From a virus (taxonomy: Duplodnaviria > Heunggongvirae > Uroviricota > Caudoviricetes): a stretch of DNA of 7,330 bases. The notes under the pieces are model-generated. The model was given only the letters and a program-made list of their open reading frames with translations. It was not told the DNA's origin and did no database searches. The stretch's first letter is position 1. Each line of letters begins with the position of its first letter. Shown piece after piece: positions 1 to 7,330 of this stretch. The stretch lies in IMG/VR virus record IMGVR_UViG_2609459769_000015; one strand, 5' to 3'. Position numbers and translations under genes: made by a program.

Positions 1-183
1 ATGACATTTTTACAGCTTATTTTATTGTATTTCTGCACGGCAGTATGTGCGTTATATCTGGTGAGTGGTGGTTATAAGGCCATCAGAAATTATGTTCGCC
101 GCAAAATTGAGGACGCAGCAGCTGAAAAACTCAGTAAAACAGCGCAGGTAACTCCGCTCCCAAAAGACCCGACCCAGCCCTGA
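1..183 (+). CDS. Hypothetical small membrane protein (60 aa): N-terminal hydrophobic helix FLQLILLYFCTAVCALYLV followed by a charged tail
   Basis: ORF begins with ATG at window position 1 (its promoter/RBS, or an upstream extension, would lie outside the window); stop TGA 181-183; 36 bp upstream of the next gene on the same strand. Confidence 0.35.
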   Translation: MTFLQLILLYFCTAVCALYLVSGGYKAIRNYVRRKIEDAAAEKLSKTAQVTPLPKDPTQP

Positions 184-218
184 TTGCAGGGCTTTATTCC
201 CGCATAAGGAGGATATAC

Positions 219-473
219 ATGCCAGAAATTAAAGGCACCGTCACTGAAGACCTGGTAAAACAGGCACTGTATTCCGGTGAAGTAAATAAGTTGCTGAAAG
301 CGCAGGTCCGCAAGGATTTTGAGGCACAAATCGACACTTACGTTGATGAAGTGCTGGCAAAACTTATTGGGCCAGCAGTTGCGGCCAGTGATGCTGATAA
401 TGAGCCGAAAACCGACGCGCAGCCAGAGCAACCAGACCCGGCTCAGCCCGGAACTGACAGTACCATGATGTAA
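219..473 (+). CDS. Hypothetical acidic protein (84 aa) with Pro/Gln/Asp-rich C-terminal tail
   Basis: ATG at 219 preceded by strong Shine-Dalgarno AAGGAGG (205-211); natural-looking composition; stable hairpin immediately after the stop. Confidence 0.5.
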   Translation: MPEIKGTVTEDLVKQALYSGEVNKLLKAQVRKDFEAQIDTYVDEVLAKLIGPAVAASDADNEPKTDAQPEQPDPAQPGTDSTMM

Positions 474-478
474 CAATA

Positions 479-506
479 CAAACCGGTGGTGTCCTCTGCC
501 GGTTTG
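479..506. terminator. Hairpin (8-bp stem CAAACCGG / CCGGTTTG, 12-nt loop) just after the 219..473 stop; possible terminator between convergent genes
   Basis: Perfect inverted repeat at 479-486 / 499-506; no clean U-tract on the plus strand, modest T-rich run on the minus-strand side. Confidence 0.3.
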
Positions 507-530
507 ACACTAATGAAAACATCTTTGCCG

Positions 531-572
531 CTATCCAGCCATATGTAATCGCTGGATAGTATTTCGTATTCA
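531..572 (+). terminator. Hairpin (9-bp stem CTATCCAGC / GCTGGATAG, 11-nt loop) followed by a T-rich tract TATTTCGTATTC; candidate intrinsic terminator
   Basis: Perfect inverted repeat 531-539 / 551-559 followed by T-rich sequence 560-572. Confidence 0.3.
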
Positions 573-640
573 GAAATATAGCTGCTTATGGAGCAGTCAA
601 TCCTGCTTCCCCATCCGGGCAGGCAAATGAACCGGTATCA

Positions 641-934
641 TTAGTCCGATTCACGCTTTTGTAGAATCGTTCCCAGAATGCTATACAGCTCATTAGCCTG
701 TTGCTCCATCATTGAGACGGAGGCTATACGGTGCAAAGTGATTTCAGGAGGTGGCACACCTCCATCTTCTTGCTGTGGAGGAAAAACATAAGATTTAATA
801 AAAAAGTTGAAGCATATGAACTCTCCCGCACTCGAACTGTATTTGCAGGCATCTGAATAATCGGAAAAATAATCATTATAGATTTCCGCATTTTCAATCA
901 TTTTTCGATTTCTCGTCGTTACATGATTGTCCAT
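641..934 (-). CDS. Hypothetical protein (97 aa), divergently oriented from com-mom
   Basis: ATG (reverse complement of 932-934) preceded by Shine-Dalgarno AAGAGG with 5-nt spacer; no family recognised by eye. Confidence 0.5.
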   Translation of the reverse strand: MDNHVTTRNRKMIENAEIYNDYFSDYSDACKYSSSAGEFICFNFFIKSYVFPPQQEDGGVPPPEITLHRIASVSMMEQQANELYSILGTILQKRESD

Positions 935-1057
935 AGCAGCCTCTTACGCTGGCAATTAACCAATTGACTTCTATAAATTAGTTGATTTGTTTGCTTTGCG
1001 GTATTCAAATGTACAATCATTCAGCACTTATGCGTTACAGCACCGTTTAAAATTAGT

Positions 1058-1147
1058 GATCAAACTCATAAATTTTCGCTAATGACATTTCGTGTTATTT
1101 GTTGTATCAATTAAATAAATCAAATCGATCGTTTTTGTCGATCGATT
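1058..1147. promoter_or_regulatory. com-mom upstream control region: three GATC (Dam) sites at 1058, 1127 and 1140, the latter two inside a perfect 9-bp inverted repeat AATCGATCG-N7-CGATCGATT (1123-1147)
   Basis: Read directly from sequence; AT-rich 250-bp intergenic region between divergent genes; candidate -35 ATGACA (1082-1087) and -10 TATCAA (1105-1110) are weak. Confidence 0.5.
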
Positions 1148-1190
1148 GAGTGATAAAGATATCAACAACAAAGCAGGAGGTTATGCGGCC

Positions 1191-1391
1191 ATGTATCGAA
1201 ACATACGGTGCCGACATTGTAACAAGCTACTGGCACGAGCCAGCTTCAGTTATCTGGAAGTTAAATGTCCGCGCTGTAAAACCCTCAATCAAATCACATC
1301 TCAGAGCGCCACAGAGCACCCCACATACACAAGGAAATCCTGTCGTGGGGAACAGAAAGCAAGTTACATCCCGTATCATCAGCACGCCTGA
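1191..1391 (+). CDS. com: Com-like zinc-finger translational activator (66 aa), Mu Com family
   Basis: ATG 1191 preceded by AGGAGG (1175-1180); Cys4 pattern CRHC...CPRC ([30 protein letters not shown]) closely resembles phage Mu Com; 3' end overlaps the start of the mom-like ORF as in Mu. Confidence 0.85.
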
Positions 1392-2082
1392 ACTTATTCA
1401 CTATAACGACAATATCGTCGGTTATGGCTCCCGTGAGTTACGGGTTGAGACAATAAGTTGCTGGCTGGCCCGGCTGGTCGTCGTCAATAAACATTACAGC
1501 CATCGTTTCGTAAATAATTCCTACCTTCATCTGGGCATATTTTCAGAACGGGAGCTGGTTGGCGTAATGCAATGGGGTTATGCCCTTAATCCAAACAATG
1601 GTGCACGCGTCGTAACTGGCACGCAGAACCGCGAATATATGGAGCTTAACCGGTTATGGCTGCATGACTGTATGCCGAGAAACTCCGAATCAAGGGCAAT
1701 CAGTTACGCGCTCAAACTAATCAGACAACTTTATCCGCAGGTGCAGTGGGTTCAGTCGTTTGCAGATGAGCGTTGTGGCTGTCTTGGTGTCGTGTACCAG
1801 GCAAGCAATTTTGATTATGTAGGCAGTCATGAAACAACATTCTATGAACTTGATGGCGAGTGGTATCACGAGATTTGCAAGAATGCAATCAAACGAGGAG
1901 GACAGCGAGGTGAACATCTGCGGGCTAATATCGACAGAGCCAGTGTTCATAAATTCCGTCAGTTTCGTTACATCCGGTTTCTGGACAAGAGAGCCAGAAA
2001 ACGCCTTAACACAAAGCTATTCAAAGTCCAGCCTTACCCAAAACCACAAACAGTTAAAACTGGTTTGAAAGAGAGTGAATGA
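1345..2082 (+). CDS. mom: Mom-like DNA modification protein (acyltransferase-fold adenine-modifying enzyme), about 245 aa if initiated at GTG 1345
   Basis: Long ORF overlapping com out of frame; motifs KHYSH, NSESR, SFAD recalled from Mu Mom; candidate start GTG 1345 with AAGGAAA (1331-1337) upstream; start position is uncertain (the ORF is open from 1150). Confidence 0.75.
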
Positions 2083-2117
2083 ACGCTTAAAAACTCATTC
2101 TAAAACTCAAAAGAAAA

Positions 2118-2158
2118 GCGCCGATTTAGTATCAAATAAGTTGCGTATCGGCGTTTTT
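2118..2158. terminator. Candidate bidirectional intrinsic terminator between convergent mom and dam: stem CGCCGAT / ATCGGCG (2119-2125 / 2147-2153), T5 on plus strand, T-rich run on minus strand
   Basis: Inverted repeat with 21-nt loop, followed by TTTTT (2154-2158) and preceded by AAAAGAAAA (2109-2117) which gives a U-tract for the opposite strand; the loop is long, hence moderate confidence. Confidence 0.4.
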
Positions 2159-2193
2159 CAGCGGTATCAAATGAAATGCAAATCGGTATCAAA
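2128..2193. repeat. Three direct copies of GTATCAAA (2129, 2164, 2186), two within an exact 10-bp repeat CGGTATCAAA (2162-2171 and 2184-2193, 22 bp apart)
   Basis: Read directly from sequence in the mom-dam intergenic region; function unknown. Confidence 0.4.
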
Positions 2194-2244
2194 AAAATCG
2201 CCGCGCTATATTAAAGCCGCTGCAGTTGTTCATATCAGCATGGC

Positions 2245-3102
2245 TCATGCACGCACTCCGTACACGGCAGAACTATCCACGCCACGCGAAGGATCAAATC
2301 CCACCCAGCAGCGCGCCCCAGAAACAGCGATGATTTCTGTTGCAGATTTACTCTCGCCAGCCGACACGCCGATGCTGCGTTTTGCCTTGATGTAGTGGTG
2401 AGTGAAATTTCGATACAGCGAACGGATCAGGGATGTGTCACTGTTAGAAACAATGACTGGATGACCTTCTGATGATCGATATTCAAGAACAGATGCCAGG
2501 TGATACTGGTCATCTTCAGTGAAGCCGTTAGTGTGATAGCCGGAAAACGTACCGTCATAAGGCGGATCGCAATACACCACATCCCCCACCTGCAGCATCG
2601 CCAGCGTTTCATCAAAGCTGGCGCAGATAAACGTTGCTTGCTGGGCTTTCTCTGCAAATGCGCGAATTTCTTTTTCAGGGAAATACGGATTTTTATAATT
2701 ACCGTATGGAATGTTGAAATGCCCGCTCTTGTTATAACGACATAACCCACGGTAACCATGACGATTGAGATACAGGAAATATACCGCTTTCATGAAATCA
2801 GTAATTTCAGTGGAGTAATTAAACTCCTGCCTTATGTTGTAATAAGCCAACTCCCTGTTTGCTTCCTCAAATAAAGCTCTGGCACGAGATATAAACGCCT
2901 CGCAATCAGCAGCAACCTTTTTATAGAGGTTGATTAAATCAGGATTAATATCCGCAACAAGATAGCTGGGGTAATCCGTCTCCATCATCACAGCACAGGA
3001 ACCCGCGAAAGGTTCAACCAGTCGCGGGCCAGCAGGAAGGTGTTTTTTCAGTTCGGACATTACGGCGGTTTTATTTCCCGCCCATTTCAGGATGGTGCTC
3101 AT
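2245..3102 (-). CDS. dam: DNA adenine methyltransferase, Dam family (D12-class N6-adenine MTase), 285 aa
   Basis: Strong resemblance to E. coli Dam along the length: [15 protein letters not shown] (AdoMet motif), [15 protein letters not shown], catalytic DPPY; start ATG at 3100-3102 overlaps the upstream stop in an ATGA junction. Confidence 0.9.
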
Positions 3103-3326
3103 ACAGCACCCCCGTTGTAATGTTTGCCTTTCAGCTCTGCGATTTCCTGACAGGTAATGCAAAGCTGCACACCCGGAATGGCACGGCGGCGTGCTGGCGG
3201 AATTGGCGCTTCACACTCAACGCAAAGCACGCGGGACACGCCCGGCGTTTTGGCACGGGCAGCACGGATATGGCGCTGGCGTTCTTCTTCAACGCGCTGC
3301 TGTACGAGATCCATTGCATCAGCCAT
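3099..3326 (-). CDS. TraR/DksA-family C4 zinc-finger protein (75 aa)
   Basis: CVEC...(17 aa)...CITC four-cysteine motif and size typical of phage TraR-like proteins; start overlaps the upstream gene stop (TAATG). Confidence 0.8.
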   Translation of the reverse strand: MADAMDLVQQRVEEERQRHIRAARAKTPGVSRVLCVECEAPIPPARRRAIPGVQLCITCQEIAELKGKHYNGGAV

Positions 3327-3559
3327 TAGTGGATCTCCTGCGCTTCGTTCTGGATTGCTTCAGCAGTCACACGCAGCAGTTCTGCCGCTTCCACGTGGTT
3401 TAGCTGACGGGATGAGATATGACACGCCAGGCTATCAAGGCGAGCTGCCATTGCTTCAGCCCTTGCCCGGCGTTCTTCCAGACGAGCCTCTGTCAGTAAA
3501 ATATTAAGCCCTGCGTCATCCGGTCCGGTTTTAGTCGTGAGGGTTTCAATATTACGCAT
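3326..3559 (-). CDS. Hypothetical early protein (77 aa), Ala/Arg/Glu-rich helical
   Basis: ATG (reverse complement of 3557-3559) preceded by AGGAG with 8-nt spacer; translationally coupled to the TraR-like gene; resembles small conserved proteins of P2-like early operons. Confidence 0.6.
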   Translation of the reverse strand: MRNIETLTTKTGPDDAGLNILLTEARLEERRARAEAMAARLDSLACHISSRQLNHVEAAELLRVTAEAIQNEAQEIH

Positions 3560-3626
3560 AATCAATTCTCCTGAATTTAGATAAAGGGATGCCCGGCGGG
3601 TTTACGCCATTAATTTCATTAGTTGG

Positions 3627-3968
3627 TTAATTCGGCATGGTTAGCCGTCTGGGAAATAAGCTCACCACTGCACGAAAATGATTCATTGCTTTAATCAGCT
3701 CCCGCTTTTCGTCAGTGGTCAGCTCATTAATGCTGATGCTATGACGTTCAGCTGGAATTTTTGCCATAAAGAATATGGCAGCCAGTGCCCGTTTATTTTG
3801 TTCATTATTGATATCCCGTGGATCACGCATATCTTTAATAAACCGCTCAAGCTCTGACTCAATATTCAGGCCAAAAACTTTCGCCCTTAACTCCGCAATG
3901 TGATTAAGTCCATTCAGGCGTTCACCGGGGCTTAATGGAACAGTTGCTGCAGCGCCATTAATTGCCAT
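3627..3968 (-). CDS. Hypothetical early protein (113 aa)
   Basis: ATG (reverse complement of 3966-3968) with G-rich RBS; ordinary protein-like composition; no family recognised by eye. Confidence 0.55.
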   Translation of the reverse strand: MAINGAAATVPLSPGERLNGLNHIAELRAKVFGLNIESELERFIKDMRDPRDINNEQNKRALAAIFFMAKIPAERHSISINELTTDEKRELIKAMNHFRAVVSLFPRRLTMPN

Positions 3969-3990
3969 ACTTCATATCCCCCAAACGCAG

Positions 3991-4215
3991 CTATCGTTCT
4001 TTGTTCTTACGGTAACGCTCAAGAGGAGATACATTTTTTCGTATCGTCTCTTTAACCTGCTCTCCCCGTAAAAACGTCCCATCCTTTAACGCGAAAAAGT
4101 AACTGCCATCGCCCGACAATGACGGATAGCAACAGAGCAAATCATCTTCAGGTACTGAATAACTCTCCCCTCTGTAACGAAACTGATAAACCACTTCACT
4201 TTCTGCCGCATACAT
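3991..4215 (-). CDS. Hypothetical early protein (74 aa)
   Basis: ATG (reverse complement of 4213-4215) preceded by GGAGAAAG; natural-looking sequence; overlaps the 3' extension of the upstream ORF in another frame. Confidence 0.6.
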   Translation of the reverse strand: MYAAESEVVYQFRYRGESYSVPEDDLLCCYPSLSGDGSYFFALKDGTFLRGEQVKETIRKNVSPLERYRKNKER

Positions 4216-4382
4216 TTGGACTTTCTCCGTTTCCTCGTGGTCAATTCAGACAGCAATTCATCTTGTGAATGACATGGATGCCAGCGTTTTCCATCCTCAC
4301 CCGTGATCCAGCCGTGACCGTAGTGCATTGCCGGGCTTTGTTTTACCAGCAGCGATGCAAATGATGGTTCTTTCGTCAGCAT
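4086..4382 (-). CDS. Hypothetical early protein downstream of cII (position of 186 fil); 98 aa as it stands, but the last ~42 aa look like out-of-frame read-through
   Basis: ATG (reverse complement of 4380-4382) preceded by GAGGTG; N-terminal 56 aa look protein-like, C-terminal part (Cys/Arg/Trp-rich) overlaps the 3991..4215 gene for 130 nt. Confidence 0.4.
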   Translation of the reverse strand: MLTKEPSFASLLVKQSPAMHYGHGWITGEDGKRWHPCHSQDELLSELTTRKRRKSKCMRQKVKWFISFVTEGRVIQYLKMICSVAIRHCRAMAVTFSR

Positions 4383-4389
4383 AAGCACC

Positions 4390-4899
4390 TCACAGCAAAC
4401 CGAATGAAGCACCGAGGCCAGTCACGGTATCAACTGCACTCGCCATCGCAGGGTTAGCCTGTAAACGGGCCTGCAATGAAACAGCAGCCAACGCCATCAG
4501 TCGTGTTACAGAGTTAATGCTGCTGATAGCATCACGACGACCTGCACTGGTTTTTACATCGCCAGATACCGCACCTGCAGCAACACGCCCGATCTCTGCG
4601 GTTGCACTCATGACGTAATGTGGCAGTTTCTCTTTTGCCACCTCATTAATTGGTACGCATGGCAGGCAGTGAATCTGTGCCAGAAAACCATCTACCAACG
4701 TTGAATCTTCAGTCAGATCGGTAAGCAGCCAGATTTCTGGTGCGGTTAATAAATGAGGTTGAGCTGGGTTCAGCTTGTTCCGCAGAATCTGCACATTCAT
4801 GCCCGCACGTTCTGCCAGTTGCACCAGATTGTGGCGCAGTGCGAATGCACGACAGGCTTCATCAAAATGTGGATGTTTGGAAACTTGGTAATCAAACAT
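4390..4899 (-). CDS. cII: Phage 186-type CII lysogeny-establishment activator (169 aa)
   Basis: Sequence [19 protein letters not shown]...[28 protein letters not shown] closely matches what I recall of phage 186 CII; ATG at 4897-4899 (reverse) is preferred over the TTG at 4906-4908 given by the ORF track. Confidence 0.85.
4873..4899. promoter_or_regulatory. Candidate CII operator: inverted 7-bp half-sites ATGTTTG (4873-4879) and CAAACAT (4893-4899), 20 bp centre-to-centre, overlapping the cII start codon; implies a rightward CII-dependent establishment promoter reading antisense through apl toward cI
   Basis: Half-sites read directly; the sequence and two-helical-turn spacing match my recollection of the 186 CII binding site at pE; weak -10-like ACTTAT at 4915-4920. 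Confidence 0.5.
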
Positions 4900-4963
4900 G
4901 GTTTTCAACTCCGAACTTATCGCAAAATCGAACTCAGCGTCTTATTGCGAAAATAGACGTCTA

Positions 4964-5167
4964 TTAAGCAGACAAAGCATCAACAGTCAGAGCAGCCAGG
5001 TTAATCATTACCTTTTCACGTTTTTTGTCTTTACGAAGACGATGACGAGGTAGTCGGCCATCAGCCAACATGTCGTTAATCGTATCAATAGAAAGGCCAG
5101 TCAGTTCGCTATAACGTTCGATTGTGACATGTGGTGTATTCAGAGTAATTGAAATGTTAGGTGTCAT
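4964..5167 (-). CDS. apl: Apl/Cox-family excisionase and transcriptional regulator (67 aa), first gene of the lytic operon
   Basis: HTH segment [25 protein letters not shown] resembles P2 Cox / 186 Apl; position immediately opposite cI across the switch region. Confidence 0.65.
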
Positions 5168-5312
5168 AAGGCAACATTCCTTCTAGATATGGCTTGTGGC
5201 GAGCCGTTGTTTGTCGTGATTAGTAGTGAAGGCTCCAAAAGAACACTTCTGGTTCAACTTTAAGATCGCTTTTGGAATCTGTCAACGAATTTTGGATTTC
5301 TTTGGAGGACTT
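5168..5312. promoter_or_regulatory. Lysis-lysogeny switch region. Candidate leftward lytic promoter (pR-like): -35 TTGACA (minus strand, 5280-5285), 17-bp spacer, -10 TAAAGT (5257-5262). Weaker candidate rightward promoter (pL-like): -35 GTGTCA 5161-5166, -10 TAGATA 5184-5189
   Basis: Hexamers read from sequence; face-to-face arrangement is that known for 186/P2; helically phased TTTGGA repeats at 5271, 5291, 5301 and TGTGGA at 5311 overlap the -35. Confidence 0.45.
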
Positions 5313-5882
5313 GTGGATTTCAATAGCGGCGGTAAGAAAGCCATAGAACGTTTAGTTGAAGCATATGGGTTCGGTACCCGTCAGGCTCTCTGTGATCATT
5401 TAGGTGTTTCTAAGAGCACCATGGCAACGCGCTATATGCGTGATATTTTTCCAGCAGATTGGGTAATCCAGTGCGCCCTTGAAACGGGCACCTCGCTTAA
5501 TTGGCTAACAACAGGGCATGGTTCAAAGCAAGCATCAGCAAATACAAATACTATAGAAGTAGAAAAATATTTATTGTCTGATGGAGCATTGCAGAAAGAC
5601 GGTTTTTATATTTTTGATAAGGGATTTCTACCCTCTACGTTTAAAAAACCTTTTGTCATCACAGATAACAATTCTGAATTTATTTGTGATAAAGAATTTG
5701 ATGATATACGTGATGGTAAATGGGTAATAAGTATTGATGGCGAAATAACGATCCGTGACATTACTCGTTTACCCGGTGGAAGAATCTTCGTCGAGGGTGG
5801 AAACAGAGCCTTCGAATGCAAGATAGAAGACATTGAAATAATTGGTAAAATTATAAGTTTAACAGTCAAGTATGTTAAATAG
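5313..5882 (+). CDS. cI: Phage 186-type CI immunity repressor (189 aa from GTG 5313; the ORF is open from GTG 5226)
   Basis: N-terminal HTH region ERLVEAYGF...CALETGTSLNWLTTGHG matches the 186 CI repressor family; GGAGG (5304-5308) precedes GTG 5313; the C-terminal half is AT-rich. Confidence 0.85.
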   Translation: MDFNSGGKKAIERLVEAYGFGTRQALCDHLGVSKSTMATRYMRDIFPADWVIQCALETGTSLNWLTTGHGSKQASANTNTIEVEKYLLSDGALQKDGFYIFDKGFLPSTFKKPFVITDNNSEFICDKEFDDIRDGKWVISIDGEITIRDITRLPGGRIFVEGGNRAFECKIEDIEIIGKIISLTVKYVK

Positions 5883-5897
5883 TACCGGGAGGAAACT

Positions 5898-6089
5898 ATG
5901 CTTGGTAAGGTATTTTTTGTGGTTTTGTCATGTTCTTTGTTATTAAACCCACTAACTACCTATGCTAGAAATTATCCCTGCTCAGGGAAAAAGGGAGGTG
6001 TTTCTCACTGTACCTCAGATGGCAAATTCGTTTGCAATGATGGAACTATTAGTAAATCCAAAAAAATCTGTACTAAAAACTCACGATAA
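5898..6089 (+). CDS. Small secreted Cys-rich protein (63 aa): signal peptide then a ~40-aa basic mature peptide with 4 Cys; moron between cI and int
   Basis: ATG 5898 with strong GGGAGG RBS (5-nt spacer) 16 bp after the cI stop; hydrophobic N-terminus [18 protein letters not shown]; AT-rich relative to flanks. Confidence 0.6.
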
Positions 6090-6224
6090 CTTTTGCTTTT
6101 ATATCTGCGTCTAAAATAAAAATGAGCCGCAGGTTAACCGCAAAAGTTACATGCTCACATAGCAAAAAGAATAGCCAACTTCATGATGGCTTCAGTGAGA
6201 TGTATGGTCGTAGGATTTCATACA

Positions 6225-6253
6225 TTGACACTGGTTATACATACAGTAAAAAT
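6225..6253 (+). promoter_or_regulatory. Near-consensus sigma70 promoter upstream of int (-35 TTGACA 6225-6230; -10 TAAAAA/AAAAAT 6247-6253) whose spacer is a LexA-box-like palindrome CTGGTTATACATACAG (6231-6246)
   Basis: Read from sequence; 13 of 16 positions match the CTGT-N8-ACAG LexA consensus (CTGG half-site as in ruvA box), with a perfect ACAGTA distal half. Confidence 0.4.
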
Positions 6254-6277
6254 GCTCTCTACTGGAGGGCATTTTTT

Positions 6278-7330
6278 ATGGCAGTACGAAAACTCACCAC
6301 AGGGAAATGGCTTTGCGAATGTTACCCCGCCGGACGTAGTGGGCGTCGTGTGCGTAAACAATTCGCCACCAAAGGCGAAGCTCTGGCTTTTGAGCGCCAC
6401 ACGATGGAAGAAACCGAAGCAAAGCCCTGGCTGGGTGAATCAGTGGATCGTCGAACACTGAAAGACGTAGTTGAGCTATGGTTCAAACTACATGGTAAAT
6501 CTCTGACAGCTGGGCAGCATGTCTATGACAAATTGCTGTTGATGGTTGACGCTCTGGGTAATCCTCTTGCAACCGATCTCACCTCTAAAATGTTTGCCCA
6601 CTATCGAGATAAACGCCTGACAGGCGAGATCTACTTCAGCGAGAAATGGAAGAAAGGAGCAAGCCCGGTCACCATTAACCTGGAGCAAAGCTATCTAAGT
6701 AGTGTTTTTAGCGAACTATCCCGTCTGGGCGAATGGTCGTATCCGAACCCACTGGAGAACATGCGAAAATTCACCATCGCAGAAAAAGAGATGGCATGGC
6801 TTACCCATGAGCAGATTGTTGAATTGCTGGCTGATTGCAAACGTCAGGACCCAATTCTGGCACTGGTAGTTAAGATATGCTTAAGCACAGGCGCACGCTG
6901 GCGTGAAGCCGTAAATCTTACCCGCTCACAGGTGACCAAATACCGAATTACCTTTGTCAGAACGAAGGGGAAGAAAAACAGAAGCATCCCTATCAGTAAA
7001 GAGCTTTACGAAGAGATCATGGCGCTTGATGGGTTCAATTTCTTTACAGACTACTATTTTCAATTTTTATCCGTGATGGAAAAAACGTCTATCGTGCTCC
7101 CTCGCGGTCAACTCACACACGTTCTGCGCCATACGTTTGCGGCGCACTTCATGATGTCGGGTGGAAACATTCTCGCCTTACAAAAAATTCTCGGACACCA
7201 CGATATAAAAATGACTATGCGTTACGCACATCTGGCACCAGATCATCTGGAAACGGCGCTCCGTTTCAATCCTCTGGCAACGCTGCCAAGTGGCGACAAA
7301 GTGGCGGCAGCGGTTGGCATTACCCCGTAA
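6278..7330 (+). CDS. int: Tyrosine site-specific integrase, P2/186 family (350 aa)
   Basis: N-terminus MAVRKLTTGKW...RKQFATKGEALAFERHT parallels P2 Int; catalytic region LSTGARWREA, HVLRHTFAAHF, MRYAHL with active-site Tyr; ATG 6278 preceded by GGAGGG (6265-6270); stop is the last codon of the window. Confidence 0.9.
   Translation: MAVRKLTTGKWLCECYPAGRSGRRVRKQFATKGEALAFERHTMEETEAKPWLGESVDRRTLKDVVELWFKLHGKSLTAGQHVYDKLLLMVDALGNPLATDLTSKMFAHYRDKRLTGEIYFSEKWKKGASPVTINLEQSYLSSVFSELSRLGEWSYPNPLENMRKFTIAEKEMAWLTHEQIVELLADCKRQDPILALVVKICLSTGARWREAVNLTRSQVTKYRITFVRTKGKKNRSIPISKELYEEIMALDGFNFFTDYYFQFLSVMEKTSIVLPRGQLTHVLRHTFAAHFMMSGGNILALQKILGHHDIKMTMRYAHLAPDHLETALRFNPLATLPSGDKVAAAVGITP

What the first reader, a model, noticed from the sequence alone, without database searches (positions are those of the whole stretch)
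5898..6089. AT-rich moron encoding a small secreted four-cysteine peptide inside the lysogenic cI-int operon
The gene is inserted between cI and int, carries a strong RBS and is noticeably more AT-rich than its surroundings, so it is probably horizontally acquired and expressed in the lysogen. The product has a signal peptide and a ~40-aa basic mature domain with Cys at four spaced positions, which suggests a disulfide-stabilised periplasmic or exported peptide. Candidate roles are superinfection exclusion, a bacteriocin or toxin-like peptide, or a host-interaction factor. I recall a periplasmic exclusion/virulence gene (glo) at a comparable position in Vibrio phage K139, which gives precedent.
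Basis: partly seen in the sequence, partly recalled or inferred. Interest (0 to 1): 0.6.

Follow-up and report, generated by a model that had tools for sequence, protein, structure and literature searches.

The report
Phage-borne YdcA-family periplasmic mini-protein gene
The small gene between the repressor and integrase genes of this E. coli prophage is real and strongly conserved, and it encodes an exported 40-residue, four-cysteine protein of the already catalogued but functionally unknown YdcA family, so it is an ordinary annotated gene whose role is still an open question.

Summary
The ORF at 5898-6089 is real. It has a GGGAGG ribosome-binding site 5 nt upstream, a Sec-type signal peptide (cleavage predicted after Ala23) and a 40-aa, pI 9.7 mature part with four Cys. 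It is not an orphan. It is RefSeq WP_000900883.1, "YdcA family protein" (NCBIfam NF007463 above cutoff, Pfam PF27300 "YdcA", PHROG 6000 "unknown function"), a paralogue of the uncharacterised E. coli K-12 periplasmic protein YdcA.

The mature domain is under very strong purifying selection (pN 0.04 against pS 0.93). YdcA variants occupy the same cI-int slot in other 186-like prophages of E. coli, Klebsiella and Hafnia. An unannotated copy sits there in Haemophilus phage HP2. In sister phages the slot holds anti-phage systems (PD-Lambda-1, a KAP NTPase) or, in Vibrio phage K139, the exclusion gene glo.

The AT-richness is real but is shared with the 3' half of cI. cI and ydcA diverge together as one immunity cassette.

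The only solved relative is a lobe of Legionella Dis2, a disulfide-pinned subunit under the outer membrane in the Dot/Icm secretion complex. No function has been tested. My best guess, at low confidence, is a lysogen-expressed periplasmic binding protein that acts in exclusion or in envelope fitness.

The parts
5313..5882 (+). cI repressor gene (RefSeq start; the ORF is open from 5226), first gene of the lysogenic operon
   Evidence: Pfam Phage_CI_repr 3e-31 and Phage_CI_C 5e-29. RefSeq CDS WP_001346406.1 lies at the corresponding coordinates.
5887..5892 (+). Shine-Dalgarno GGGAGG, 5 nt upstream of the ATG
   Evidence: Read directly from the sequence.
5898..6089 (+). ydcA-family gene (63 codons plus stop), identical to RefSeq WP_000900883.1
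   Evidence: NCBIfam NF007463 115.8 bits against a cutoff of 93. phrog_6000 2e-34. PF27300 'YdcA' is precomputed for the cluster representative. The exact sequence is found on more than 1000 contigs.
5898..5966 (+). Codons 1-23: predicted Sec signal peptide ([23 protein letters not shown]), with SPase I cleavage after Ala23
   Evidence: Hydrophobicity and the -3/-1 rule. Ala23 is at least 90% conserved while the rest of the signal peptide is not. No dedicated signal-peptide predictor was available.
5967..6086 (+). Codons 24-63: mature 40-aa basic domain with C28, C38, C46 and C58 and the motif [12 protein letters not shown]...[17 protein letters not shown]
   Evidence: Invariant columns in the alignments. 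AF2 pLDDT is about 84-90 for the core. pN 0.036 against pS 0.93.
6090..6277 (.). 188-bp spacer. 6090-6176 is specific to this cassette. From about 6177 the sequence is shared with phages that carry other cargo (int leader).
   Evidence: Megablast matches to phage 813R9/KP12 start at window 6177, and to Klebsiella phage 4LV2017 at 6220. GC is 37.2%.
6278..7330 (+). Integrase gene (350 aa plus stop), last gene of the operon in this window
   Evidence: Pfam Int_N 3e-32 and Phage_integrase 7e-22. RefSeq start confirmed. tblastn aligns from residue 1.
5475..6201 (.). Continuous low-GC block (100-bp windows below 40% GC) covering the 3' half of cI, ydcA and most of the spacer

Best explanation
The ORF is a genuine gene of a 186-like (Peduoviridae) E. 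coli prophage. It encodes a phage-borne member of the YdcA family.

Shown:
- Family membership.
- Extreme purifying selection on the mature domain.
- Recurrent placement directly in the cI-int lysogenic operon in several hosts.
- Co-divergence with cI as one immunity cassette.

Inferred:
- The gene is co-transcribed with cI from the lysogenic promoter, so it is made continuously in lysogens.
- The precursor is exported by Sec and cut after Ala23.
- The four Cys form two disulfides, by analogy with Dis2. This gives a 4.3-kDa, strongly basic, rigid mini-domain that stays in the periplasm.
- It has no catalytic features, so it should act by binding. The most likely target is a conserved component just under the outer membrane, as its only solved relative, a lobe of Legionella Dis2, does in the Dot/Icm complex.

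Proposed pay-off for the prophage: a lysogenic-conversion effect at the envelope, most likely interference with entry of competing phage or other foreign DNA. This would be superinfection-exclusion-like, as for Glo in the same slot of K139.

I put the identity and localisation steps at about 0.9 and the exclusion function at about 0.3.
For: Identity: NF007463 above cutoff; PF27300 YdcA; RefSeq name.

Selection: 14 invariant columns, including all 4 Cys, across gamma- and beta-proteobacterial homologues. pN 0.036 against pS 0.93, and dN/dS 0.047.

Operon: a 15-nt gap after cI, a strong SD and no terminator. In HP2 the homologue's ATG overlaps the cI stop. The 186 record documents pL as the promoter of the cI-int lysogenic operon.

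Same slot elsewhere: E. coli and Klebsiella have cI-ydcA-KAP NTPase-int. Hafnia has cI-orf143-ydcA-int. HP2 has cI-ydcA-orf1-int.

The slot is a defence or exclusion hotspot: PD-Lambda-1 at 3e-120 in phage 813R9 and PDC-S20 at 1e-171 next to ydcA; glo in K139; a cI-int hotspot described for K139-like phages (PMC9122126).

Binding fold: the top Foldseek PDB hit is Dis2 chain 7muc_AN (probability 0.97, 38% identity). A profile hit to the same chain scores E 1.8e-5. Dis2-like proteins carry PF27300. hhalign gives 85%. Dis2 is disulfide-pinned, lies close to the outer membrane and contacts DotC, DotD and DotK (PMC8486379, PMC12716638).

Mobile-element spread: at least 535 IMG/VR contigs; Moraxella, Acinetobacter, Haemophilus and Pseudomonas phages; small mobilisable Acinetobacter plasmids.
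Against: - No experiment on any YdcA protein shows exclusion, and I found no paper on phage YdcA.
- There is no PADLOC hit.
- Most family loci across species are chromosomal and not phage-linked. Only about 6 of 80 lie next to a cI gene. This fits a housekeeping envelope role at least as well as a defence role.
- E. coli already has a chromosomal ydcA.
- Deleting dis2 has only subtle effects (PMC12716638).
- Export, cleavage, disulfides and lysogen expression are all predictions.
Confidence: 0.4

Rival explanations
1. Host-fitness (envelope or acid-stress) factor. The phage copy supplies extra or constitutive YdcA activity that helps the lysogen tolerate envelope or organic-acid stress, and has no effect on other phages.
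For: The E. coli K-12/W ydcA product is a predicted periplasmic 57-aa protein (PMC11340327). Its deletion made E. coli W sensitive to 300 mM 3-hydroxypropionate, and the paper cites ydcA up-regulation at pH 5 under YdcI (PMC7642389). Most family members are chromosomal in varied, non-phage contexts.
Against: It does not explain why the gene sits so consistently in a slot otherwise filled with anti-phage cargo, or why it is carried by 3.9-kb mobilisable plasmids. The phage protein fails the cutoff of the K-12 YdcA equivalog model (NF007462, 68.5 bits against 118), so it is a distinct subfamily.
Confidence: 0.25
2. Periplasmic nucleic-acid (polyanion) binder. The basic mini-protein binds DNA that reaches the periplasm and so blocks natural transformation or phage DNA transit.
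For: The mature peptide has net charge +7 and pI 9.7. Among 65 long representatives of the family, the only enzymatic fusion partners are secreted nucleases of two unrelated superfamilies: Endonuclease_NS in 4 and SNase in 1. A PBCV basic adaptor module also occurs. Phage copies occur in the naturally competent genera Haemophilus, Moraxella and Acinetobacter. In HP2 the next gene encodes a signal-peptide protein with an OB-fold (tRNA_anti-like) domain.
Against: The YdcA domain in the nuclease fusions is nearly neutral (0 to +1). Long proteins average +2.0 against +3.9 for stand-alone ones (p = 2e-6). Positive charge is therefore not a conserved property of the fold, and in fusions the domain could equally be an anchor. 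E. coli is not naturally transformable under usual conditions. Injected phage DNA is normally shielded from the periplasm (general knowledge).
Confidence: 0.15
3. Accessory subunit or modulator of a type IV secretion or conjugation machine (Dis2-like), for example affecting conjugative entry.
For: The Dis2 relationship. UniRef labels the cluster 'Conjugal transfer protein'. A homologue lies beside traD and mobA on a 3.9-kb Acinetobacter plasmid.
Against: This protein has a single lobe, whereas Dis2 has two lobes with five disulfides. No T4SS genes lie nearby in the window or in the prophage loci. The UniRef name has no visible basis. Dis2 is reported only from Legionellales.
Confidence: 0.07
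4. Exported toxin or bacteriocin-like peptide acting on neighbouring cells.
For: It is a small, basic, disulfide-rich peptide with a signal peptide.
Against: There is no adjacent immunity, processing or export gene; the neighbours are only cI and int. A Sec signal delivers the product to the periplasm, not outside the cell. The family includes stable chromosomal single genes in many species. It has no similarity to known toxins in Pfam, NCBIfam or PADLOC.
Confidence: 0.03

Closest known systems
E. coli K-12 YdcA (b1419) and the YdcA family (Pfam PF27300; NCBIfam NF007462/NF007463; PHROG 6000)
   Same: Same architecture: a signal peptide followed by a ~35-40-aa domain with four Cys and the PCSGxKGG...F[VI]C[NK]DG[TS]xSxSK motif. 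The window protein passes the NF007463 cutoff. Function is unknown for all members.
   Different: The window protein belongs to the prophage-type subfamily (NF007463) and not to the K-12 equivalog (NF007462, below cutoff). It is encoded inside a phage lysogenic operon and not next to trg/rydC on the chromosome.
Legionella pneumophila Dis2 (Lpg0823), outer-membrane-cap subunit of the Dot/Icm T4SS (PDB 7MUC/7MUD)
   Same: It is the only solved structure with detectable similarity: Foldseek probability 0.97 at 38% identity, profile E 1.8e-5, shared PF27300, hhalign 85%. It is a periplasmic, disulfide-pinned small fold that binds other envelope proteins just under the outer membrane.
   Different: Dis2 has two tandem lobes with five disulfides and belongs to a T4BSS that E. 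coli lacks. The sequence link is marginal once the signal peptide is removed (E 0.035). The function of Dis2 is itself unknown and its deletion is nearly silent.
Glo of Vibrio phage K139
   Same: A gene in the cI-int lysogenic operon of a P2-related phage, annotated as periplasmic and involved in phage exclusion. The cI-int interval is described as a defence hotspot in K139-like phages (PMC9122126).
   Different: There is no sequence similarity (BLASTP E 0.16). Glo is 137 aa and is not Cys-rich. The analogy is positional only.
Defence cargo of the P2/186-like cI-int (int-primase) hotspot, e.g. PD-Lambda-1 and KAP NTPase (PDC-S20)
   Same: They occupy the same slot in phages with 98-99% identical integrases. 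They are AT-rich like ydcA.
   Different: Those are large cytoplasmic NTPase or nuclease-type proteins that PADLOC recognises. YdcA is a 63-aa exported protein with no PADLOC hit.

Membership tests
YdcA family (PF27300 / NCBIfam NF007463) | Scores above the curated cutoff of the family model | tested here: met
   NF007463 115.8 bits against a cutoff of 93, full length. PF27300 is precomputed for the 98%-identical cluster representative and named YdcA. The local Pfam copy lacks this model.
YdcA family (PF27300 / NCBIfam NF007463) | Four conserved Cys and the PCSGxKGG...FxCxDGxxSxSK core | tested here: met
   All invariant columns are present in the window protein.
YdcA family (PF27300 / NCBIfam NF007463) | N-terminal Sec signal peptide giving a periplasmic product | tested here: inconclusive
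   The sequence features fit: K4, a hydrophobic core, TYA|R and a conserved Ala at -1. No dedicated predictor and no experiment were available.
K-12 YdcA equivalog (NF007462) | Scores above the equivalog cutoff | tested here: not met
   68.5 bits against a cutoff of 118. It is a paralogous subfamily and not the K-12 orthologue.
Dis2 (Lpg0823) T4BSS outer-membrane-cap subunit | Two homologous lobes pinned by five disulfides | tested here: not met
   The window protein has one lobe and four Cys in the mature part.
Dis2 (Lpg0823) T4BSS outer-membrane-cap subunit | Homology of the lobe fold | tested here: inconclusive
   [not shown]
Dis2 (Lpg0823) T4BSS outer-membrane-cap subunit | Physical association with a Dot/Icm-type machine | not testable with these tools
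   No T4SS genes lie in the window or in related prophage loci.
Phage superinfection-exclusion proteins of the cI-int slot (Glo type) | Encoded in the lysogenic operon between cI and int | tested here: met
Phage superinfection-exclusion proteins of the cI-int slot (Glo type) | Sequence homology to Glo | tested here: not met
   BLASTP E 0.16 over 30 residues.
Phage superinfection-exclusion proteins of the cI-int slot (Glo type) | Exclusion phenotype | not testable with these tools
   This needs plaque, adsorption and DNA-entry assays.
Known anti-phage defence systems (PADLOC-DB 2.0) | Match to a defence protein model | tested here: not met
   0 families at E up to 1.
Bacterial lipoprotein | Lipobox [LVI][ASTVI][GAS]C after a signal of adequate length, conserved in homologues | tested here: not met
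   VLSC at residues 9-12 sits too early: K4 falls within the six preceding residues. Homologues have LLIC, LFVC or no Cys at that position.

The most novel reading that the evidence does not exclude
Phage- and plasmid-borne YdcA proteins are a minimal (40-aa) periplasmic entry-blocking factor. They are made with the repressor and dock onto a universally conserved component beneath the outer membrane, or onto incoming DNA, to stop competing phages or foreign DNA. If so, this would give the first function to the whole YdcA/Dis2-lobe fold, including the E. coli y-gene ydcA and Legionella Dis2.
Probability: 0.2. Interest if true: 0.7.

Novelty: new member of a known kind. Interest (0 to 1): 0.4.

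Why it matters
As it stands this is an annotated gene of a named family, so the finding is not a discovery. Its value is as a lead. A 40-residue exported domain is kept almost unchanged at the protein level while its synonymous sites are saturated. It is carried by temperate phages of at least five genera, by small plasmids and by many chromosomes. In P2/186/HP1-type phages it sits next to the immunity repressor in a slot otherwise used for anti-phage systems. About 11% of complete E. coli genomes carry this cI-ydcA cassette. A simple expression or deletion experiment could assign a function to an orphan family that includes an E. coli K-12 y-gene and an unexplained subunit of the Legionella Dot/Icm machine.

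Tried and rejected
- Foldseek against the viral structure library BFVD returned nothing below E 0.9.
- The afdb50 library was unavailable.
- PADLOC gave no hit.
- The local Pfam copy gave only a sub-threshold chance hit, because it lacks PF27300.
- Rfam found nothing anywhere in the window.
- Glo homology was rejected.
- Literature searches for YdcA with periplasm, prophage or small protein found only passing mentions of the K-12 gene and the unrelated B. subtilis rhomboid YdcA. PF27300 appears in no paper. The hotspot papers and the supplements that are held do not mention YdcA or WP_000900883.
- A lipoprotein reading of Cys12 was rejected because the lipobox is not conserved and sits too close to the N-terminus.
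- I first favoured DNA binding because of the nuclease fusions. The charge analysis showed that the fused domains are nearly neutral, so I demoted it to a rival.
- The Dis2 link weakened when the signal peptide was removed from the profile (E 1.8e-5 to 0.035). I therefore report it as probable and not proven.
- The weak NCBIfam hit to lpg1681_fam (E 0.11) was not pursued.

Full report
**1. What is in the window**

The right two-thirds of the window (2211-7330) is 100% identical to a prophage in E. coli strain 1283, integrated next to rcdA/ybjJ. The gene order is that of a 186-like member of the Peduoviridae:
- dam
- TraR/DksA
- DUF2732
- DUF5347
- Fil
- cII (4390-4908, -)
- an Apl/Cox-like gene (4964-5167, -)
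- then, on the + strand, cI (5313-5882), the small ORF (5898-6089) and int (6278-7330)

In prototype phage 186, cI and int abut with nothing between them. Its record annotates pL as the promoter of the cI-int lysogenic operon. The ORF is therefore extra cargo relative to 186.

**2. Checking the observation**

- GGGAGG lies at 5887-5892, 5 nt before the ATG and 15 nt after the cI stop. No + strand terminator-like site lies between the two genes.
- The product starts with a basic residue (K4), a hydrophobic core (residues 5-17, mean Kyte-Doolittle 2.37) and T-Y-A|R.
- In an alignment of 32 homologues the signal peptides are unrelated in sequence, yet all are hydrophobic and end in a conserved Ala (at least 90%). 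The following about 35 residues are nearly invariant, including all four Cys.
- The mature peptide is 40 aa, 4.29 kDa and pI 9.7.
- The lipobox-like VLSC at residues 9-12 is too close to the N-terminus and is not conserved, so I reject a lipoprotein reading.

The ORF is a real gene. Against the diverged copy in another E. coli prophage, 21 of 22.5 synonymous sites differ in the mature domain but only 3 of 82.5 nonsynonymous sites. Against the Hafnia copy dN/dS is 0.047.

The composition claim is half right.
- The ORF is 35.4% GC (GC3 0.30), against 45.3% for the window and 48.6% for int.
- The low-GC block is continuous from 5475 to 6201 and includes the 3' half of cI (32.9%).
- In related prophages ydcA and neighbouring cargo are also AT-rich (30-39%).

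**3. Identity**

The protein is RefSeq WP_000900883.1, named "YdcA family protein" or "hypothetical protein" in different genomes.
- It passes the NCBIfam equivalog NF007463 (115.8 bits, cutoff 93).
- It fails the K-12 YdcA equivalog NF007462 (68.5 bits, cutoff 118).
- It matches PHROG 6000, "unknown function".
- Its cluster carries Pfam PF27300, named YdcA. The local Pfam copy lacks that model.
- The exact sequence is on more than 1000 contigs.
- About 624 of 5426 complete E. coli genomes hold the cI-ydcA segment at 80-100% identity.
- At least 535 IMG/VR viral contigs encode a relative.

The literature I could search says only the following. K-12 YdcA is a 57-aa protein with a signal sequence and unknown function (PMC11340327). 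A ydcA deletion made E. coli W sensitive to 3-hydroxypropionate, with cited acid-induced expression under YdcI (PMC7642389). Nothing was found on phage-borne YdcA.

**4. Context across elements**

YdcA variants occupy the same slot in other 186-like prophages.
- E. coli and Klebsiella: cI-ydcA-KAP NTPase-int.
- Hafnia: cI-orf143-ydcA-int.
- Haemophilus phage HP2/S2: an unannotated 60-aa YdcA ORF whose ATG overlaps the cI stop. It is followed by orf1(S), a signal-peptide protein with an OB-fold-type domain, and then by int.

Between the window and the E. coli/Klebsiella variants, cI is 65% identical and YdcA is 59-67% identical, with almost all change in the signal peptide. Int is 98% and 88% identical and CII 89% and 78%. 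cI and ydcA therefore travel and diverge together as an immunity cassette. This is not a recent insertion of ydcA alone.

Phages with nearly the same int carry other cargo in the slot, or none.

| Phage | Content of the cI-int slot |
|---|---|
| vB_EcoM-813R9 | PD-Lambda-1 (PADLOC 3e-120) |
| Klebsiella phage 4LV2017 | a 349-aa unknown protein |
| PSP3 | DUF2511 |
| K139 | a BRCT protein plus Glo |
| ESSI2_ev129 and 186 | nothing |

The KAP NTPase next to ydcA matches the PADLOC candidate PDC-S20 at 1e-171. Rousset et al. describe the cI-int interval of K139-like phages as a defence hotspot (PMC9122126). A 2026 survey lists an int-primase hotspot holding 8% of the systems in P2-like phages (PMC13586616). 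Neither mentions YdcA.

Outside this slot the family occurs in:
- Moraxella siphophages, within the structural region, and Acinetobacter and Pseudomonas phages;
- 57 plasmids, including 3.9-kb MOBQ Acinetobacter plasmids and Rhizobium megaplasmids;
- many chromosomes of alpha-, beta- and gamma-proteobacteria.

Among the neighbours of 80 species-level loci, only 6 had a Phage_CI_repr gene and 5 an integrase. The rest were varied chromosomal genes. Moraxella bovoculi has a plainly non-phage locus.

**5. Structure and relatives**

AlphaFold2 gives a small beta-hairpin core with pLDDT near 90 in the middle of the mature domain.

The best PDB match by Foldseek is chain AN of 7MUC/7MUD (probability 0.97, E 0.13, 38% identity over 39 columns). 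A family profile hits the same chain at E 1.8e-5 and touches both of its lobes. That chain is Dis2 (Lpg0823) of the Legionella Dot/Icm outer-membrane cap. Dis2 has two similar lobes pinned by five disulfides and lies close to the outer membrane. It contacts DotK, DotC and DotD, has no known function and is dispensable (PMC8486379 and PMC12716638).

The link has support and caveats.
- Support: Dis2-like proteins carry the same precomputed Pfam PF27300, and hhalign gives 85%.

I regard homology to a Dis2 lobe as probable and not proven. By that analogy the four Cys should form two disulfides.

**6. Domain fusions**

An exhaustive HMMER search found 312 family clusters at 50% identity. Most are stand-alone, with a signal peptide and one domain. 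Some have two or three tandem domains or basic low-complexity tails.

Among the 65 longest of the top 150, the only enzymatic partners are secreted nucleases of two unrelated superfamilies: Endonuclease_NS in four and SNase in one. One each of VasL, DUF4124 and a PBCV basic adaptor module also occurs.

This first suggested nucleic-acid binding. However, the YdcA domains fused to nucleases are nearly neutral (0 to +1). Stand-alone domains average +3.9 against +2.0 in long proteins (p = 2e-6). The charge is therefore not a conserved property of the fold, and in the fusions the domain may simply be a periplasmic or outer-membrane anchor.

**7. Most likely mechanism**

Shown:
- a real, strongly constrained gene of the YdcA family;
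- physically and evolutionarily coupled to cI;
- located in a slot used for defence and exclusion cargo.

Inferred:
- transcription with cI from pL in lysogens;
- Sec export, cleavage after Ala23 and two disulfides;
- a non-catalytic, binding mode of action in the periplasm, probably on a conserved component beneath the outer membrane, as for Dis2.

I commit, at low confidence (about 0.3 for this last step), to an exclusion-like role against competing phages or foreign DNA. The main rival is a host-fitness role related to that of chromosomal ydcA (0.25). Next are periplasmic DNA binding (0.15), a T4SS or conjugation accessory role (0.07) and a toxin or bacteriocin (0.03).

**8. Verdict**

- The gene is a lysogenic-operon accessory gene for an exported four-Cys peptide, and the K139 glo analogy is valid by position.
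- AT-richness does not mark the ORF as a separate acquisition.
- A bacteriocin role is unlikely.

This is an annotated member of a known but uncharacterised family, sitting in a known hotspot. Interest is moderate (0.4), mainly as a cheap experimental lead.

Noticed in passing
window 1-2245 (junction at about 2211): The 186-like prophage is truncated about 12 codons into its replication gene A. Window 1-2210 is instead the end of a different, lambdoid-type prophage, with DUF1378 (1-183), DUF826 (219-473) and a Mu-like com (1146-1391) overlapping mom (1150-2082; Pfam Mom 1.6e-77). No complete E. coli genome in the collection holds window 1-3200 contiguously, so this is either a prophage remnant or fusion, or a chimeric window.
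   Followed up: partly
[not shown]
   Followed up: yes
L003 3112-3876 (HP2 orf1(S)): The gene after the HP2 ydcA homologue encodes a signal-peptide protein with an OB-fold 'tRNA_anti-like' domain (Pfam 2.8e-13). It is a second exported protein in the same lysogenic operon of a phage whose host is naturally competent.
   Followed up: no
L001 1841-3517; L014 4198-5529: Phages and prophages with 98-99% identical integrases carry PD-Lambda-1 (PADLOC 3e-120; annotated only as 'chromosome segregation ATPase'), or a KAP NTPase matching the candidate system PDC-S20 (1e-171), in the same cI-int slot. The slot therefore behaves as a defence hotspot in E. coli/Klebsiella 186-like phages too.
   Followed up: partly
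window 6090-6277: An unusually long 188-bp spacer lies between ydcA and int; in 186, cI and int overlap. A + strand promoter-like site (TTGACA-17-AAAAAT) lies at 6225-6253, and a minus-strand terminator-like hairpin at 6143-6127. The number of promoter-like sites is not above the shuffled expectation. Terminator-like sites are more frequent than in shuffles (7 against 1.4).
   Followed up: no
window 5850-5878 (- strand): A near-consensus sigma-70 promoter-like site (TTAACA-17-TATAAT, 11 of 12) points antisense into the 3' end of cI. It lies in AT-rich DNA, so it may be a chance match.
   Followed up: no
L011 (Acinetobacter pittii plasmid pApiMCR53a, 3916 bp) 728-904: A YdcA homologue is one of only five genes on a 3.9-kb MOBQ mobilisable plasmid, directly after a traD-like gene. 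UniRef labels the E. coli cluster 'Conjugal transfer protein' without visible support.
   Followed up: no
proteins P0056, P0058, P0060, P0062, P0188 and others (betaproteobacterial homologues): Some family members carry a second Cys-containing C-terminal module with a CxGPRGGxYC...G.K.Y motif (one matches Pfam PBCV_basic_adap). Many stand-alone members end in a basic Ser/Thr/Lys-rich tail followed by an 'NPF' motif.
   Followed up: no
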